From a virus: a stretch of 64,000 bases of DNA. The notes under the pieces are model-generated. The model did no database searches. It was not told where the DNA came from and saw only the letters and a list, made by a program, of their open reading frames with translations. Both the position numbers and the translations under genes were made by a program. The DNA lies in IMG/VR virus record IMGVR_UViG_3300022682_000033, positions 3,893 to 67,892 of that record; one strand, written 5' to 3'. Positions within the stretch are counted from its first letter, which is position 1. Each line of letters begins with the position of its first letter. This document shows, one piece after another, positions 34,843 through 59,761 of the stretch.

Positions 34843-34940
34843 TGCTATCGAGATAGGGTCGCCACCGAAAAGCAAGTATCCTGTTCTTGTCTGCTCGATA
34901 GCTCATTAAAAACAGGAAACCCTGAACAGGAGGAGTCCTT

Positions 34941-35310: not shown

Positions 35311-35432
35311 TGATAACAATGCGTTTGCAGCCGACGCAAGCCCGCGCCCGCTGTAAAGCGCATCGTCATAAATAGCGTCGTCTCACCGCGCATGTCCTGT
35401 GTGGCTTGCGCGGCTGAAACGCGGCGTTATGC
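35311..35432 (+). repeat. attC-like site (long)
   Basis: TGATAACAATGCGTTTGCAGCCG...CGGCTGAAACGCGGCGTTATGC. Confidence 0.85.
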
Positions 35433-35506
35433 CGCAGTCGCCCAGTTGGCCGGGAGCACGTTTTGTAAGCGTGATGACGTCGGTTCGAATCCGACCTGCG
35501 GCTCCA
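35431..35506 (+). tRNA. tRNA-Thr(UGU), sole cargo of an attC cassette
   Basis: 76-nt cloverleaf: GCCGCAG/CTGCGGC acceptor, anticodon loop TTTGTAA, GTCGG-TTCGAAT-CCGAC T arm, encoded CCA; one D-stem mismatch. Confidence 0.85.
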
Positions 35507-35562
35507 TAACCCACCGCTCAAGCGGACGCAAAACAGCCGCGCCGCTTAATTGATCGTTAGCA
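35504..35562 (+). repeat. attC-like site
   Basis: CCATAAC...TCAAGCGG/CCGCTTA...GTTAGCA. Confidence 0.8.
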
Positions 35563-41633: not shown

Positions 41634-43667
41634 ATGTCAACAAAAATACCAAGTTCAAAAATTGAATCGATGTGGCGAAACCTTGATCCGGAAATTAAGG
41701 CAGATTGGATACAGACCGCCATTGTGAATTATAATGTTCCTCGTAATGTTGCAGAAATAAAAGCCGTCGAGTTGTTCTGGGAAGCAGAAAATGCAAAAAG
41801 CAAAATGGCTGAGTATCAATCAGGCCCAGAAGGATGTATCCGCTGGATTAATGATAACATATACCAAAAGGTGATCCCGTATGGCGGGCATGTCCATCAA
41901 TGGGTTCCGATGGGAGAATTGCCAACAAAAAAAGATAAATATGGCAGGTCATACAAAACTATGTGGGAGGCTCAGCAAAAGGTTATTATGGAAGCCCTTG
42001 CCGTTGATAGCACCGGAACTTATAAGCATAACCTGATAGCTCTCGTTTGGCCTCGTGGCCTTGGAAAAAGTTTTCTCGCGGTGTGCATTGGGCTTTATCG
42101 TTTTATTTGTTTCAGCTATCAAAAAGTTTATTTCAGCGCGAATAGCTACGATGAGAGTGACGAGTTGCATTTCAGTGAGGCGAAAACGCTTCTTCTTAAT
42201 AGTCCTGTCTTGTGTGAAATAATAGGTGAAAATAACATACTATCAAATAAAATTAGATTCGTTGCCGGTGATAAAAATGTAATGAATGAGATAAAAATAA
42301 TATCTCAAAAACGCGGCATTGTTTCTAATGCTGCTGTTGTGACTCAAACAGAGGTTTTTAAACAAGAATCCGATACTTTTTTTGCTCAATGGTATGGAAG
42401 TTTGAGGATGACACATAATGCGCTTGGTATAATTGATTCAACCGTGTCAGACAAAAGCCATTGGCTATATCGTCTGTATAGAAATGCAAAAAAAGACCCT
42501 GGTGGGCCAGTATATTTCAACTACTATGGATGGGAGGACGCTAAGGCAAAATATTTCTGGCACCCTGGGATGACAGATCGTGATCTGGCCGGCTTTAAAA
42601 CAGCAATGTCCAGACGGGACTTTGACAGATATTATAATAACCTATGGGGGAAACAAGGGGTTGGGTTATTTGACAATATTGATATTGGCGCAATTGGATA
42701 TTTTGGGGCAAATGGAGTCCCGATATGCCATGAGGTTGTTAAGGATACACTGAAAAGGGCAAATAAGAAATCGCAGCGCATTGTGGTTCAGCAACTTCAA
42801 CAACAGCCTACGAGGCGCCAGGAGGTCGCAGCCGAATTGATTGGGTCTCTCATGCCGGTGGAAGACTTTTATTCTCTCGGCCAGCATTCGTTCGACAAAG
42901 AAACGACCATACGAAGGCCATCCATTATGCCGGGAATGAAAGAGGCCAGAAAGATAACCGATGCGCTGCAAACAAATTTGTTCTCTTTGCTGGTTGGTAT
43001 TGACCGTGCGGAACCAAACAAGTTCAGCACCACTGGTGCAAAAACAGTCGTGTCTTGGATGATTAAAGTTCCGGCCGGTGAAATGTTTACAGGATTCGCG
43101 GAAGACCCGTATATGTACGTTCTTTTCGGTTTGGCGGTAGTAGAAAATTCTATGAGCCACCCGATTATTACACTGTTGTCCGAAATACATAATTGTATGG
43201 GGATTGATTTTTTGTGTGGGGATCGATATAACTTTAGTGAGATATCGCCATGGTGTGATCAAAATGGAATCAAGTGGAGGTCTGTAAACCCGACGCTTGA
43301 AATTCAGAGGCAGGGGTTCGGGTTGTTTATCCGAGCCGTAAACAACGGTCTGTTTAAGGCTCCTCCAATGCCGGTAGCAGGTGTCACTCAAGCTGATATC
43401 TTGAGAGAAGAGCTTTCTGTGTTTGACGAGCTTGGGAAGCACAAGCAAACAGGCGTTTCAAAATACGGAAGCCCACAAAAACACAAAGCAAACGGTATTC
43501 AGGACGACGCTATGGATTCAATCGGGATCGGTATGTTTGGCGGGATGGGCATTACAAAAGCCCACATGATCGACAAGTTTGCTCAAAAGAAAAGCAGCCT
43601 ACCATATCTGAAAATGATCAATGGCCCGGCTTCCATTCAGGACACATACTCGTCTTTGTATATGTAA
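41634..43667 (+). CDS. terL: Terminase large subunit
   Basis: Walker A WPRGLGKS, R.Y.N.W linker, nuclease motifs VGID, GDRY and QDDAMDS. Confidence 0.75.
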   Translation: MSTKIPSSKIESMWRNLDPEIKADWIQTAIVNYNVPRNVAEIKAVELFWEAENAKSKMAEYQSGPEGCIRWINDNIYQKVIPYGGHVHQWVPMGELPTKKDKYGRSYKTMWEAQQKVIMEALAVDSTGTYKHNLIALVWPRGLGKSFLAVCIGLYRFICFSYQKVYFSANSYDESDELHFSEAKTLLLNSPVLCEIIGENNILSNKIRFVAGDKNVMNEIKIISQKRGIVSNAAVVTQTEVFKQESDTFFAQWYGSLRMTHNALGIIDSTVSDKSHWLYRLYRNAKKDPGGPVYFNYYGWEDAKAKYFWHPGMTDRDLAGFKTAMSRRDFDRYYNNLWGKQGVGLFDNIDIGAIGYFGANGVPICHEVVKDTLKRANKKSQRIVVQQLQQQPTRRQEVAAELIGSLMPVEDFYSLGQHSFDKETTIRRPSIMPGMKEARKITDALQTNLFSLLVGIDRAEPNKFSTTGAKTVVSWMIKVPAGEMFTGFAEDPYMYVLFGLAVVENSMSHPIITLLSEIHNCMGIDFLCGDRYNFSEISPWCDQNGIKWRSVNPTLEIQRQGFGLFIRAVNNGLFKAPPMPVAGVTQADILREELSVFDELGKHKQTGVSKYGSPQKHKANGIQDDAMDSIGIGMFGGMGITKAHMIDKFAQKKSSLPYLKMINGPASIQDTYSSLYM

Positions 43668-43720
43668 CGATTGAAGCCAGCGGCGCGGGGTTTTGCGTCC
43701 GGTGGATTGAATGGTTATGT
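43662..43720 (-). repeat. attC-like site overlapping the terL stop codon
   Basis: Minus strand ACATAAC..TCCACCGGACGCAAAACCCCGCGCCGCTGG..GTTACAT. Confidence 0.75.
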
Positions 43721-43835
43721 GCCGCCTGGAATTGAACCAAGACCGGGACACCTTCACGAACCGTCATTTAAGGCGGAGTCGAACCGCCAGGATCTCCCGT
43801 GTTCATGACCACTGCACCTGCTGTGGGTCAAGCAC
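43719..43835 (-). ncRNA. tRNA-like pseudoknotted RNA A (cassette cargo)
   Basis: Closing stem, D-like arm, two T-loop hairpins, crossing helices; same topology as 47772-47897. Confidence 0.65.
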
Positions 43836-43860
43836 ATAACGATTGAACTAACCGGCGCAC
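43834..43860 (-). repeat. 3' half of an attC-like site
   Basis: Minus strand GCGCCGGTTAGTTCAATCGTTATGT. Confidence 0.6.
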
Positions 43861-44058
43861 AACGCATTAATTAGTAGATTATCCTACGTAGCGCCTTTTC
43901 CGTTGGAATCCACGCCCAATCTCCAATCCTACGTCGCAGAAGTCCGAGTCTGTACAGGTCAATTTTGATTTGTTTCCAGCATTTCGCGCGGATCATTCGA
44001 TCATCACCTTTGGAAATTATGTGCCGCAACGCCTTTTTATGTTCGACTGAAAGATGTG

Positions 44059-44340
44059 TCATTTTATTGTGCCGCTTGGCATCAATCGGTAATACAAAGT
44101 TTTTGGAATGCACAGGTCGTCTGCGATATCTTTTTTACTCATTCCGCCAGCAAGCTTTCTTTTTATAGCCATTTTAAGGCACTCATGCTGCTTTCTGACG
44201 GCGTTCTTGTATGCACCCATCATTTGCACCGTGGTATATTGCGCGATACGTTGTCGTGACCGTCCTAAGATTCTCGCGCAATCAGCTTGCGGTATGCCTT
44301 CGGCCAGCATTTTTGATATGGTTTCTTTTGTGACTTCCAT
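44059..44340 (-). CDS. HTH DNA-binding protein
   Basis: GIPQADCARILGRSRQRI and GMSKKDIADDLCIPKTLYYR. Confidence 0.6.
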   Translation of the reverse strand: MEVTKETISKMLAEGIPQADCARILGRSRQRIAQYTTVQMMGAYKNAVRKQHECLKMAIKRKLAGGMSKKDIADDLCIPKTLYYRLMPSGTIK

Positions 44341-46959: not shown

Positions 46960-47018
46960 ATCTAACGTTTCAAATAACCGGCGCTGGGGTTTGCGTCCGG
47001 TTGAACAGATTGTTATGC
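46960..47018 (-). repeat. attC-like site
   Basis: Minus strand GCATAAC..TTCAACCGGACGCAAACCCCAGCGCCGGTTA..GTTAGAT. Confidence 0.8.
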
Positions 47019-47037
47019 TACATCATCCCGATTATAA

Positions 47038-47152
47038 ATGCGTCTCCGTGTGTCCAGCTTTCTCATCGCGGCAGCACGTCTGCTTGCCGGGGTGATATTG
47101 GTCTCGCACCGTCCCTCACCTGGGCCATCATAGCGCAGTGACGGAGACGCAT
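47038..47152 (-). ncRNA. Structured RNA C (ORF-less cassette)
   Basis: 12-bp closing stem ATGCGTCTCCGT/ACGGAGACGCAT with internal hairpins. Confidence 0.55.
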
Positions 47153-47212
47153 AACGGTTAAGCTAACCAACGCGCGGCTTTTTGCGCGTCCGGGTTTAGC
47201 GAATGGTTAGCC
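47149..47212 (-). repeat. attC-like site
   Basis: Minus strand GGCTAAC..GCTAAACC..GGTTAGC..GTTATGC. Confidence 0.75.
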
Positions 47213-47714: not shown

Positions 47715-47773
47715 CAATAACGTTAATGATCACCGGCGCGGCTTTTTGCGTCCGCTCGAATGTCGGGTTATGT
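47715..47773 (-). repeat. attC-like site
   Basis: Minus strand ACATAAC..GCGGACGCAAAAAGCCGCGCCG..GTTATTG. Confidence 0.75.
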
Positions 47774-47897
47774 GCCGTCAGAATCGAACTGACCTCAACC
47801 AGGGTTTTCACCCTACGGCTATTTCACGATGCCGATTTGAACGGCCACCCCTGGTTTTCTTTTCCGCAGTTGCCAGTCACCAGTCTGGCTTGGGCAC
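47772..47897 (-). ncRNA. tRNA-like pseudoknotted RNA B (cassette cargo)
   Basis: GTGCC/GGCAC, D-like arm, crossing CTGCGG/CCGTAG and AACCAGGG/CCCTGGTT, two T-loop hairpins. Confidence 0.7.
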
Positions 47898-48023
47898 ATA
47901 ACGCCCGGGTCAGTTGCCTGGCGGTTAAAATTAAAACGGTGGCTTGCCGATGCAAACATGATCAAGCACTTCATTATCAAAAACCGCATCGCCCGCCCGG
48001 TCCACTGCACCTGCTTGTTGGGG
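47896..48023 (-). repeat. attC-like site (long)
   Basis: Minus strand CCCCAAC..GTGCAGTGG...CAACTGAC..GTTATGT. Confidence 0.65.
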
Positions 48024-58843: not shown

Positions 58844-59761
58844 CTATATACCAATATGTGTTCCGATTGTGTTGATTATATCATTTCCTGGGCGCTCAGA
58901 ATCCCACAGGACGCCATCAAGGACGTATCGCAAATCAGACGGCCTTGCCATGATATATCTATCCATGATGGATTCTACGGTCTCTCCGAGCATGTGGGCT
59001 ATGATTTCTATTCGTATCCCACGGAACAGCGCTTTGGTTGCGAGGGTGCGCTTGAAAACATCGAACGGATCATCTATTTTGAGGTTAATGTCCTTGCTCG
59101 CAGCAGTCACCAACCTCGTTACCTCCCTGACATTCAGGTCGAATAGCAGCGGAGTATCGTCGCTTTCGTTACATGCGATTCCCGCTGCGGCAATCTTTAA
59201 TTTCGTTTGGTTTGAAAACACCACAAATCTTGTCCTCAAACCATTGATAATGAACAGACTTCTTGTTTCGGCGGAAAGGTCGCATTTTTTTGACGTGGAA
59301 ATCTCGACCGCGTTTAACCCCGTGTCGATCAGGATTGCTATTATCGCACGGTTGCGCTCATTATCGCTTTTCCAGGTATACGCTTTAAGCTGAAGGCACT
59401 CATGGTCAGAAAGCACGACGCCGGATGCTGAGTGGCGAATGTGCGATAACTCTCTTTGTTGTATGTTATCAAATGCAATCGTGATATCTGACTCCTCTGC
59501 CCCGTTGAACATGGCGAACCTTTTTGCGAGATTCACCTTTGCTTTAACTGTTGATTTTTTGGCATAATTCGATTCAAGCCAAATCTCATATTCTGAAACA
59601 GTCGCCATGCTATCTATCGGTAATGTCCATTCATGTTCTGCTAAAAAGCTATAAAATGGTTTTATGGCTCCCCTCATACCATCTTTTGATGTAGACTTTA
59701 TTTTTAGAGAGTTCAAAAACACATTGAACTTCGTTGCTATCTTATTACGTTCAGAATACAT
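58844..59761 (-). CDS. Tyrosine-recombinase-fold protein with a degenerate active site
   Basis: RNRAIIAILIDTGLNAVE, DVFKRTLAT, MLGE, DRY. Confidence 0.75.
   Translation of the reverse strand: MYSERNKIATKFNVFLNSLKIKSTSKDGMRGAIKPFYSFLAEHEWTLPIDSMATVSEYEIWLESNYAKKSTVKAKVNLAKRFAMFNGAEESDITIAFDNIQQRELSHIRHSASGVVLSDHECLQLKAYTWKSDNERNRAIIAILIDTGLNAVEISTSKKCDLSAETRSLFIINGLRTRFVVFSNQTKLKIAAAGIACNESDDTPLLFDLNVREVTRLVTAASKDINLKIDDPFDVFKRTLATKALFRGIRIEIIAHMLGETVESIMDRYIMARPSDLRYVLDGVLWDSERPGNDIINTIGTHIGI

What the first reader, a model, noticed from the sequence alone, without database searches (positions are those of the whole stretch)
43714..43840. RNA A: tRNA mimic with a pseudoknot and second T-loop in place of the anticodon arm
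Seen on the minus strand: GTGCT/GGCAC closing stem (extended by the attC cores and followed by A-CCA), D-like arm CCAC-AGCAGGTGCA-GTGG, crossing helices ATGAAC/GTTCGT and CGGGA/TCCCG, an internal GGCGG-TTCGACT-CCGCC and a terminal CTTGG-TTCAATT-CCAGG. It fills the whole cassette, with no ORF. I do not recognise the family.
Basis: partly seen in the sequence, partly recalled or inferred. Interest (0 to 1): 0.85.

Follow-up and report, generated by a model that had tools for sequence, protein, structure and literature searches.

The report
Phage tRNA-shaped RNA without anticodon
A small gene cassette in a phage genome carries no protein gene but a conserved RNA folded like a transfer RNA whose anticodon arm is replaced by a stem bearing a second T-loop hairpin; it belongs to a rare, uncatalogued phage RNA family of unknown function.

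Summary
The element fills an ORF-less attC-bounded cassette in an IMG/VR phage record.

It matches no Rfam family and is not called as a tRNA or tmRNA. I found 11 members in two subtypes. Eight are A-type, including RNA A. Three are B-type, including "RNA B" at 47765-47900. They lie in viral contigs, a metagenome contig, three Bacillota genomes (prophage-like context) and one Litorivicinus MAG. At least five are not flanked by attC sites.

Five helices keep pairing through compensatory changes: the closing/acceptor-like stem, the D-like arm, the inner stem, the internal T-loop hairpin and the T arm. In the A-type, 23 of 27 pairs change on both sides and 91% of cells are paired.

An encoded CCA is not conserved either.

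Best reading: a real, transcribed-strand-specific tRNA-shaped RNA gene of phages, probably acting as a tRNA mimic. The function is inferred, and no expression data were found.

Earlier AI notes of this scan describe similar designs in other phages. They share no near-identical sequence, and I did not test whether they are the same family.

The parts
43712..43840 (-). RNA A, an A-type member of the family: the whole tRNA-shaped element including the core-extended closing stem
   Evidence: Sequence. It scores 138.2 bits with model R1 and 127.7 bits with R3, filters off.
43831..43840 (-). 5' strand of the closing (acceptor-like) stem. The outer 5 nt are the R' core GTTAT of the upstream attC.
   Evidence: All 8 pairs of this helix change on both sides among 8 A-type members.
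43714..43723 (-). 3' strand of the closing stem. The outer 5 nt are the R'' core ATAAC of the cassette's own attC.
43809..43826 (-). D-like arm: a 4-bp stem and a 10-nt loop that starts and ends with A and contains GG
   Evidence: The stem is 100% paired, and 3 of 4 pairs change on both sides once L164 and L165 are added.
43795..43799 (-). Inner stem, 5' strand (takes the place of the anticodon stem)
   Evidence: All 5 pairs change on both sides; 80% of cells are paired.
43744..43748 (-). Inner stem, 3' strand
43772..43788 (-). Internal hairpin with a T-loop-type 7-nt loop (TTCGACT)
   Evidence: 4 of 5 pairs change on both sides; 94.9% of cells are paired. RNAalifold proposes a rival pairing, which breaks in 3 of 8 members.
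43752..43757 (-). Conserved single-stranded GTGAAG motif in the 3' linker
   Evidence: Present in 7 of 8 A-type members; L164 has ATGGAG. All 3 B-type members have GGTGAAA. Six members were found by patterns that did not require it.
43725..43741 (-). Terminal T arm: a 5-bp stem and the loop TTCAATT
   Evidence: 97.5% of cells are paired; 3 of 5 pairs change on both sides.
43801..43806 (-). It lies inside the conserved TCAnGAACA linker.
   Evidence: The helix with 43756-43761 is complete only here and is 3-5 of 7 bp in the other 7 A-type members.
43665..43720 (-). The cassette's own attC site, and the last attC of the minus-strand array
   Evidence: Reference copy of repeat family D1, which has 5 copies.
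43836..43885 (-). Degenerate upstream attC. The R' half is intact and the R''/L'' half overlaps the end of the 80-aa ORF.
   Evidence: Read. The judgement 'degenerate' is my own, from comparison with D1 copies.
47765..47902 (-). RNA B, a B-type member, in another ORF-less cassette of the same array
   Evidence: Sequence. It scores 154.7 bits with R2, 28.7 bits with R1 and 31.1 bits with R3. Pair table.

Best explanation
RNA A is a gene for a small structured RNA of about 120-130 nt, read from the minus strand. It belongs to a rare family carried by phages and prophages.

The RNA folds as a tRNA-like four-way junction with these parts:
- a closing stem that stacks on a canonical T arm;
- a D-like arm whose loop keeps A...GG...A;
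- in place of the anticodon arm, a 5-7 bp stem that encloses a second hairpin with a T-loop-type loop, followed by a conserved GUGAA(G/A) strand.

In this phage two diverged copies (A and B) have been captured as ORF-less attC cassettes. There the R'/R'' core pairing simply prolongs the closing stem.

Shown: the family, its strand and five helices. Inferred (about 0.35 of my belief): the RNA is made and processed like a tRNA, and works in trans as a tRNA mimic. It would occupy a protein that recognises the acceptor/T-arm/elbow half of tRNA, most plausibly a host tRNA-targeting defence or processing enzyme. It cannot decode.
For: **Family**
I found 11 members.
- A-type (8): RNA A, L008, L026, L153, L155, L088, L164 and L165.
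- B-type (3): RNA B, L003 and L038.
- Sources.
- The A-type model R1 scores B at 28.7 bits and L038 at 28.2 bits.
- The B-type model R2 scores four A-types at 34.1-35.4 bits as its best non-self hits. Real tRNAs reach at most 27.5 bits.
- R3 with filters off on the window gives A 127.7 bits, B 31.1 bits, and the two real tRNAs 21 and 18.4 bits.

**Structure**
- (8 A-type members): 91.2% of cells are paired against 66.1% in shuffles, and 23 of 27 pairs change on both sides. None of 500 shuffles reaches the observed values.
- Every helix has changes on both sides: 8/8, 3/4, 5/5, 4/5 and 3/5 pairs.
- (3 B-type members): all five helices pair in all three, with compensatory changes in each.
- RNAalifold independently recovers the closing stem, D arm, inner stem and T arm.

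**Strand**
19 of 215 cells are G-U pairs, which would be A-C mismatches on the other strand.

**tRNA-likeness**
- The closing pair G-C and the loop TTCRAnT of the T arm are kept in 10 of 11 members; L155 has TCCAATT.
- The D-loop GG is present in all 11.

**An RNA gene rather than an attC by-product**
- L088, L153, L155, L164 and L165 lack flanking GTTAT/ATAAC cores, yet keep a covarying closing stem.
- L155 lies between tRNA-Ile and tRNA-Pro on the same strand, in a tRNA region of a 141-kb phage.
- The Bacillota copies sit in prophage-like replication modules. Conservation there drops outside the element.

**Phage cargo context**
- The same phage carries a complete tRNA-Thr placed exactly between cassette cores.
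- Neighbouring cassettes hold a C5 methylase-like ORF and small ORFs.
Against: - No expression evidence: no RNA run was listed. Promoter-like sites number 9 against 11.2 expected, and terminator-like sites 5 against 6.3.
- Folding energy alone is unremarkable (z -1.94 and -0.97).
- The pair counts were made on alignments fitted to the model, which leans towards the structure.
- Members were found with patterns or models derived from A and B, so they were selected for fitting.
- RNAalifold prefers another pairing to the internal hairpin.
- It fails every tRNA, tmRNA and YrlA detector.
- The linkers differ from tRNA: 3-4 nt between closing stem and D arm, and 9-17 nt between D arm and inner stem.
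- There is no conserved CCA, no G3-U70, and the mature ends are unknown.
- No conserved partner gene was found, so nothing points to a particular target. The decoy idea rests on analogy.
Confidence: 0.55

Rival explanations
1. It is a cis-acting element of the phage mRNA. A tRNA-shaped structure inside an operon would serve as an RNase P/RNase Z processing or stabilising signal ('tRNA punctuation') for the neighbouring genes. It would not be a free trans-acting RNA.
For: In the non-cassette loci it lies in the same orientation as a downstream ORF and very close to it.
- L153 abuts the ATG, L155 is about 13 nt from an RBS/ATG, and L088 is about 20 nt away.
- RNA B is followed by a cassette ORF on the same strand.
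- No promoter signal above chance was seen in the array.
Against: - RNA A is the last cassette, with only a convergent gene after it.
- L026 is followed by a repeated promoter-like motif and is preceded by a divergent gene.
- Downstream genes are unrelated across loci.
- A processing signal would not need the elaborate conserved inner domain.
Confidence: 0.15
2. It is a chargeable tRNA-like RNA. It would be processed, CCA-tailed and aminoacylated, then used outside normal decoding: tmRNA-like entry into ribosomes, or as an aminoacyl donor.
For: It has a closing stem of at least 7 bp stacked on a canonical T arm and a D-loop GG elbow. The unpaired base after the stem is A in the cassette members.
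Against: - No conserved acceptor sequence, discriminator or CCA is seen across members.
- There is no G3-U70.
- ARAGORN finds no tmRNA, and no Rfam tmRNA family appears at E up to 10.
- There is no tag reading frame, and no SmpB-like or synthetase-like neighbour in the loci examined.
Confidence: 0.1
3. It works as DNA: a folded single-strand recombination structure tied to the attC machinery, or an integrase attachment site that copies a tRNA 3' part.
For: - In 5 of 11 members the ends coincide with cassette cores.
- attC sites act as folded single strands. Structured-motif searches cannot tell ssDNA from RNA (PMC5737381, passages read).
Against: - At least five members have no attC cores, yet keep the fold.
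- The orientation GTT...AAC is the cargo side, not the attC side.
- The conserved T-loop and D-loop nucleotides are RNA-tertiary features.
- No integron integrase was found in the record, only a 17.2-bit tyrosine-recombinase match.
Confidence: 0.05
4. It is a decaying tRNA gene remnant or a chance fold with no present function.
For: There is weak similarity to tRNA-Sec (15.5 bits). The folding z-scores are unremarkable. Nested or duplicated tRNA pieces do occur, as in L063, L073 and L065.
Against: Compensatory changes occur in all five helices across members from different phyla and habitats. Unpaired motifs are conserved: TCAnGAACA, GTGAAG and the D-loop GGTG.
Confidence: 0.04

Closest known systems
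Canonical tRNA, especially long-stem types such as bacterial tRNA-Sec (Rfam RF00005 / RF01852)
   Same: Four-way junction. The closing stem stacks on a 5-bp T stem with a G-TTCRAnT-C loop. The D-like arm has A...GG...A in its loop. In this phage it sits between cassette cores exactly as the genuine tRNA-Thr cassette does.
   Different: It has no anticodon arm or 7-nt anticodon loop, and the linkers are longer. No RF00005 hit appears at E up to 10, and RF01852 scores 15.5 bits against a cut-off of 47. ARAGORN does not call it.
tmRNA tRNA-like domain
   Same: It is a tRNA-shaped RNA that lacks an anticodon. The place of the anticodon arm is taken by a stem leading into further structure, with a plausible pseudoknot in the B-type.
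   Different: It has no tag ORF, no G3-U70 and no conserved CCA. It is about 125 nt long. It is not found by ARAGORN's tmRNA search or by the Rfam tmRNA models.
YrlA, bacterial and phage Y RNA with a tRNA-like domain (Chen et al. 2014, PMC4201824; passages read)
   Same: It is a non-decoding tRNA mimic with T and D arms, and YrlA is also found in phages. YrlA is modified by tRNA enzymes and, in one species, is cut by RNase P and CCA-tailed. That is a precedent for the proposed mechanism.
   Different: In YrlA the order is T arm, closed acceptor-like stem-loop, then D arm, and the RNA ends lie in the Ro60-binding stem. Here the ends are in the closing stem. No Rfam hit appeared and there is no TROVE/Ro60 gene in the record.
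[quoted passage not shown] 2013, PMC3664808; passages read)
   Same: It is an RNA with more than one T-loop-type motif. B-type linkers carry two pentamers of the form (A/U)GAAA next to the internal T-loop hairpin.
   Different: The invariant AGNNA...UGNNA pair is not kept in the A-type. No structural test was possible, so this is a lead only.
Earlier AI notes of this scan: 'two-headed anticodon-less phage tRNA mimic' (e1-6046830) and 'anticodon-less tRNA mimic gene in prophage' (e1-2653850)
   Same: The idea is the same: a phage RNA gene shaped like a tRNA whose anticodon arm is replaced by other structure, absent from Rfam and from the papers searched.
   Different: They lie on other DNA. No near-identical sequence was shared. 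I could not see their sequences, so whether they are the same family is untested.

Membership tests
tRNA (RF00005; ARAGORN) | Score at or above the family cut-off, or a call by a tRNA finder | tested here: not met
   No RF00005 match at gathering score or at E up to 10 on 43400-44200. ARAGORN lists only the two genuine tRNAs. None of the seven homolog loci L003, L008, L026, L038, L088, L153 and L155 gives an Rfam match on the element at gathering score.
tRNA (RF00005; ARAGORN) | Anticodon arm: 5-bp stem with a 7-nt loop | tested here: not met
   The inner stem encloses 45-60 nt, including a hairpin.
tRNA (RF00005; ARAGORN) | T arm G53-T54-T55-C56-R57-A58...C61 and D-loop G18G19 (features recalled from textbook tRNA numbering) | tested here: met
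   The terminal loop is TTCRAnT with a closing G-C in 10 of 11 members; L155 has TCCAATT. GG is in the D-like loop in 11 of 11.
tRNA-Sec (RF01852) | Score at or above 47 bits | tested here: not met
   15.5 bits, E 4.8.
tmRNA | Detection by ARAGORN or Rfam; a tag reading frame; G3-U70 | tested here: not met
   No G-U at the third pair of any plausible 7-bp register.
YrlA / bacterial Y RNA | Rfam match; adjacent Ro60 (TROVE) gene; permuted T - acceptor-loop - D order | tested here: not met
   No match at E up to 10. There is no TROVE match in the 67.9-kb record, and the control search found it in 2 of 14 control genomes. The order of arms differs (passages). The accession RF02553 comes from an earlier AI note, not from a call of mine.
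Integron-type gene cassette (attC-bounded cargo) | Cargo lies between a GTTRRRY-type core and the RYYYAAC-type core of an imperfect-palindrome attC, within an array of such sites | tested here: met
   Five D1 repeats of about 60 nt lie on this strand, with further sites read. The cores GTTAT and ATAAC flank RNA A and RNA B.
Integron-type gene cassette (attC-bounded cargo) | Integron integrase (IntI) next to the array | tested here: not met
   Only one tyrosine-recombinase match, at 17.2 bits and below the cut-off, about 11 kb away at window 58949-59404. The record is 75% complete.
Integron-type gene cassette (attC-bounded cargo) | Match to a formal attC covariance model (IntegronFinder) | not testable with these tools
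   No such model was on hand.
[quoted passage not shown] | Invariant AGNNA...UGNNA in two interlocked T-loops | tested here: inconclusive
   B-type has UGAAA or AGAAA followed by UGAAA in 3 of 3 members. A-type lacks a consistent pair. No 3D test was possible.
The family defined here (models R1, R2, R3) | Five helices in this order, plus the conserved GUGAA linker | tested here: met
   RNA A scores 138.2 bits with R1 and 127.7 bits with R3, which is by construction. Independent members L164 and L165 score 60.9 and 54.2 bits with R1.

The most novel reading that the evidence does not exclude
Phages move ready-made RNA decoys as integron-type cassettes. On this reading the family is a double-elbow tRNA mimic, in which each of the two T-loops is matched by a GGUG-type strand. 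It would soak up a host immune effector or processing enzyme that recognises the tRNA elbow/acceptor half. Alternatively, it would dock the elbows of real tRNAs through a double T-loop platform. Together with the tRNA-Thr cassette, it would make RNA cargo a distinct class of attC cassette.
Probability: 0.15. Interest if true: 0.85.

Novelty: new variant of a known kind. Interest (0 to 1): 0.62.

Why it matters
Non-decoding tRNA mimics are few: tmRNA, YrlA and viral tRNA-like structures. Each revealed a new way of using the tRNA shape. This family adds a compact design with a second T-loop in place of the anticodon arm. It is found only on phage, prophage or mobile DNA, and here inside attC cassettes, which are usually thought of as single-ORF units.

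If it is a decoy against tRNA-targeting immunity, it would be an RNA-based counter-defence that can be shuffled like a resistance cassette. Even without a known function, it gives a testable RNA of about 125 nt with a defined fold.

Tried and rejected
**Patterns that led nowhere**
- One search used a mis-written D-loop pattern. All 25 loci were coding false positives.
- L004 and L005, and L007 and L009, share only the end motifs and are not homologs.
- Most of the 25 viral and 93 genome stretches are tandem or duplicated tRNA pieces.
- One search gave 0 hits. One search gave only L003.

**Alignments**
- MAFFT alignments of both subtypes together (A1, A3) and the R2-fitted joint alignment (A7) put the D arm and inner stem out of register. 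I therefore counted the subtypes separately and built no joint model.
- For the B-type I assigned the columns by hand.

Rejected as a family feature.

**My own ideas that found no support on reading the alignments**
- Pairing of the 3' linker GGTC with the 5' junction GACC.
- Pairing of the GAAC linker with a T-loop GTTC.

**RNAalifold's alternative to the internal hairpin**
Its CCG/CGG half breaks in L088, L164 and L165, while the hairpin covaries. In the B-type, L003 changes the hairpin pair C-G to U-A without changing the downstream copy. The four T-loop/GUGAA pairs hold in 8 of 8 members but vary on one side only, so they remain undecided.

**Expression**
No RNA holder was listed. The one DNA run listed holds a 0.07 share of the sampled words. 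I did not lay reads.

**Other collections**
- blastn in 'distant' mode of A and B against 50,697 GenBank phage records gave no match.
- Relatives of G156: 0 of the other 150 genomes matched.
- A class sample around G156: 0 of the other 150 matched.

**Partner genes**
No conserved neighbour was found.

**Literature**
Searches found no description of such an RNA. I read passages only of PMC5737381, PMC4201824 and PMC3664808. All others were seen only as listings. Supplements are closed, so the motif lists of PMC5737381 could not be checked.

Full report
**What is there**

In order, the elements are:
- a closing stem, GTGCT/GGCAC, lengthened to 10 bp by GTTAT/ATAAC;
- a D-like arm (CCAC, a 10-nt loop, GTGG);
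- a 9-nt linker;
- an inner stem CGGGA/TCCCG, which encloses a hairpin GGCGG-TTCGACT-CCGCC and a 23-nt strand;
- a terminal arm CTTGG-TTCAATT-CCAGG.

The only ORFs are 37-52 codons long, cross the repeat boundaries and have no obvious ribosome-binding site.

**Setting**

The window is part of a 67.9-kb IMG/VR virus record rated 75% complete. On the minus strand from about 48000 to 43665 there is an array of attC-type repeats. Family D1 has five copies, and I read further sites directly.

Between the repeats lie small ORFs on the same strand: a 69-aa ORF, a 73-aa ORF and a C5 methylase-like ORF. Three cassettes have no ORF. RNA A is the last cassette. RNA B (47765-47900) lies at the upstream end of the part of the array that I read.

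The record has no integron integrase. One tyrosine-recombinase match of 17.2 bits lies about 11 kb away. On the plus-strand run, a complete tRNA-Thr(UGU) sits exactly between a GTTAT core and a CCATAAC core. That is the same layout as RNA A.

**Known families**

- Rfam 15 gives nothing at gathering score on the element.
- At E up to 10 it gives only mascRNA (16.4 bits) and tRNA-Sec (15.5 bits, cut-off 47).
- ARAGORN calls neither a tRNA nor a tmRNA.
- The seven homolog loci L003, L008, L026, L038, L088, L153 and L155 also give no Rfam match on the element at gathering score.
- There is no Ro60/TROVE gene in the record.

**Relatives**

Pattern scans and covariance-model searches gave 11 members.

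| Subtype | Member | Source | Found in |
|---|---|---|---|
| A | RNA A | this window | |
| A | L008 | metagenome contig; attC downstream | |
| A | L026 | 80-kb viral contig | |
| A | L153 | 29-kb viral contig | |
| A | L155 | 141-kb viral contig | |
| A | L088 | Bacillota MAG | |
| A | L164, L165 | two related genomes, found only by model R1 | (3 of 151 genomes; 3 of 64) |
| B | RNA B | this window | |
| B | L003 | 45-kb viral contig; attC on both sides | |
| B | L038 | Litorivicinus MAG | |

The two subtypes recognise each other:
- R1 (A-type) scores B at 28.7 bits and L038 at 28.2 bits.
- R2 (B-type) scores four A-types at 34.1-35.4 bits, above all real tRNAs in the same 0.72 Mb, which reach at most 27.5 bits.
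- R3 with filters off on the window gives A 127.7 bits, B 31.1 bits and the two tRNAs 21 and 18.4 bits.

One non-member, L063, scored 31.8 bits with R1. It is a tRNA-Pro nested in another tRNA-like gene of a CPR bacterium. So the A-B link rests on reciprocity and shared architecture, not on score alone.

The family is rare:
- no blastn match in 50,697 GenBank phage records;
- 0 of 150 other genomes matched, both among relatives of the Litorivicinus genome and in a class sample around it.

**Fold**

On the 8 A-type members, aligned to R1 (A8), the five helices pair in 91.2% of 215 cells. The 500 shuffles average 66.1% and slid controls give 35-50%. 23 of 27 pairs change on both sides, and no shuffle reaches any measure.

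| Helix | Pairs changed on both sides |
|---|---|
| closing stem | 8 of 8 |
| D stem | 3 of 4 |
| inner stem | 5 of 5 |
| internal hairpin | 4 of 5 |
| T stem | 3 of 5 |

The D stem and hairpin became informative only with L164 and L165. With six members they were nearly invariant.

In the 3 B-type members all five helices pair fully, with compensatory changes in each. Examples are the D stem GCCAG/CTGGC against ATGCT/AGCAT, and the hairpin pair C-G against U-A.

There are three caveats:
- A5 and A8 are fitted to the model.
- The B-type registers are my own assignment.
- Members were selected by patterns or models built from A and B.

RNAalifold, run on its own on the model-fitted alignment A5, recovers the closing stem, D arm, inner stem and T arm. 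It replaces the internal hairpin with pairing between TTCR...CCG and CGG...GUGAA. The CCG/CGG half of that rival breaks in 3 of 8 members where the hairpin covaries, so I keep the hairpin. The four pairs between the internal T-loop and GUGAA hold in 8 of 8 members, but without a change on both sides, so they are undecided.

**Pseudoknot**

In RNA A it arises because the 3' linker happens to repeat part of the hairpin's 5' half.

In the B-type a different crossing helix gives 5-6 contiguous pairs in all three members. It joins GCGG in the 5' linker to CCGT in the 3' linker. Its 4-bp core never varies and only the flanks slide. It is plausible but not shown.

**tRNA-likeness**

- The terminal loop is TTCRAnT, closed by G-C, in 10 of 11 members.
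- The D-like loop begins and ends with A and holds GG in all 11.
- The closing stem abuts the T stem directly in the B-type, and with one extra C in most A-type members.
- 19 G-U cells fix the strand.

It departs from tRNA in three ways: the linkers are longer, there is no anticodon loop, and there is no conserved discriminator or CCA.

The conserved unpaired strands are TCAnGAACA and CGGUnnGUGAAG in the A-type, and GCGGAAA and GGUGAAA in the B-type. The 3' linker resembles the D-loop (GGUGA in both places in the B-type). This suggests that each T-loop has its own GG-type partner, giving a second elbow. That is inference only.

**An independent gene**

Five members (L088, L153, L155, L164, L165) have no GTTAT/ATAAC cores but keep a covarying closing stem.
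- L155 lies on the same strand between tRNA-Ile and tRNA-Pro, in a five-tRNA region.
- L153 lies between two large ORFs of the same strand on a 29-kb viral contig.
- The Bacillota copies lie between PHROG-typed phage genes (phrog_23155, DUF669/SSB-like, helicase). Conservation there falls off outside the element.

So the closing stem is part of the RNA. In cassettes the R'/R'' core pairing merely extends it.

**Mechanism**

Shown: a conserved, strand-specific, tRNA-shaped fold without an anticodon, on phage and mobile DNA.

Inferred: it is transcribed with the cassette strand and recognised by enzymes that read the acceptor/T-arm/elbow half of tRNA. YrlA is a precedent, being modified by tRNA enzymes and in one species cut by RNase P and CCA-tailed (PMC4201824, passages). 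It would act as a competitor or decoy.

The context is suggestive only: a tRNA cassette in the same phage, accessory regions, and phage tRNAs reported as counter-defence (PMC13096335, seen only as listing and abstract start). I give the decoy role about one in three. The rivals are a cis processing element, a chargeable RNA, a DNA-level site and a remnant.

**Novelty**

Six literature searches and Rfam found no description. The 2017 survey of 224 motifs discusses attC-like motifs but has no tRNA-like term in its main text.

Earlier AI notes of this scan report similar anticodon-less phage tRNA mimics on other DNA. No near-identical sequence was shared, and I could not test whether they are the same family.

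I class it as a new variant of a known kind (non-decoding tRNA mimics).

Noticed in passing
window 35431-35506 (+), with cores at about 35426 and 35504-35510: A complete tRNA-Thr(UGU) sits exactly between a GTTAT core and a CCATAAC core, followed by an attC-like repeat. It is a tRNA as cassette cargo.
   Followed up: partly
window 34846-34916 (+): An Rfam int-alpA RNA match (39.1 bits, cut-off 35.8) lies at the head of the plus-strand cassette run.
   Followed up: no
window 47012-47158 (-): A third ORF-less cassette ('RNA C') has a long closing stem. Its sequence is unrelated to A and B, its folding z-score is -1.12, and models R1-R3 do not hit it.
   Followed up: partly
window 58949-59404 (-): The only tyrosine-recombinase-like match in the record (17.2 bits, below cut-off, in a 309-aa open frame). 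It lies near repeat families D4/D5. Whether it serves the attC arrays is unknown.
   Followed up: no
window 34512, 36228, 37682, 40060 (+): A 40-nt repeat (family D3) recurs four times along the plus-strand cassette region.
   Followed up: no
L063 5139-5275 (-), Candidatus Buchananbacteria MAG: A tRNA-Pro(CGG) appears nested inside a second, interrupted tRNA-like gene. Model R1 scores it at 31.8 bits. It is not a member of the family.
   Followed up: partly
L018 558-677 (-) and L011 5863-5983 (+), viral contigs: A different element of about 120 nt has two GGTTCGAATCC arms and a closing stem with G-U pairs. It may be another two-T-arm tRNA-like RNA of phages.
   Followed up: no
L008, minus strand, just downstream of the RNA cassette's attC: An open frame with CxxC...CxxC and a DRD-L-NAS-LNI ending resembles the C-terminal zinc-ribbon part of a TnpB-type protein. 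That name is recalled, not tested.
   Followed up: no
L155 2891-3260 (-) and 16-330 (-): The 141-kb phage carries a cspA thermoregulator match (79.9 bits) with a CspA-like ORF. Right after its copy of the RNA there is a small ORF that looks Smr-like by eye.
   Followed up: no
L161 3271-3355 (+): The 80-kb contig holding L026 also carries a tRNA-Thr(UGU), here 85 nt long. This is the same anticodon as the tRNA cassette in the window.
   Followed up: no
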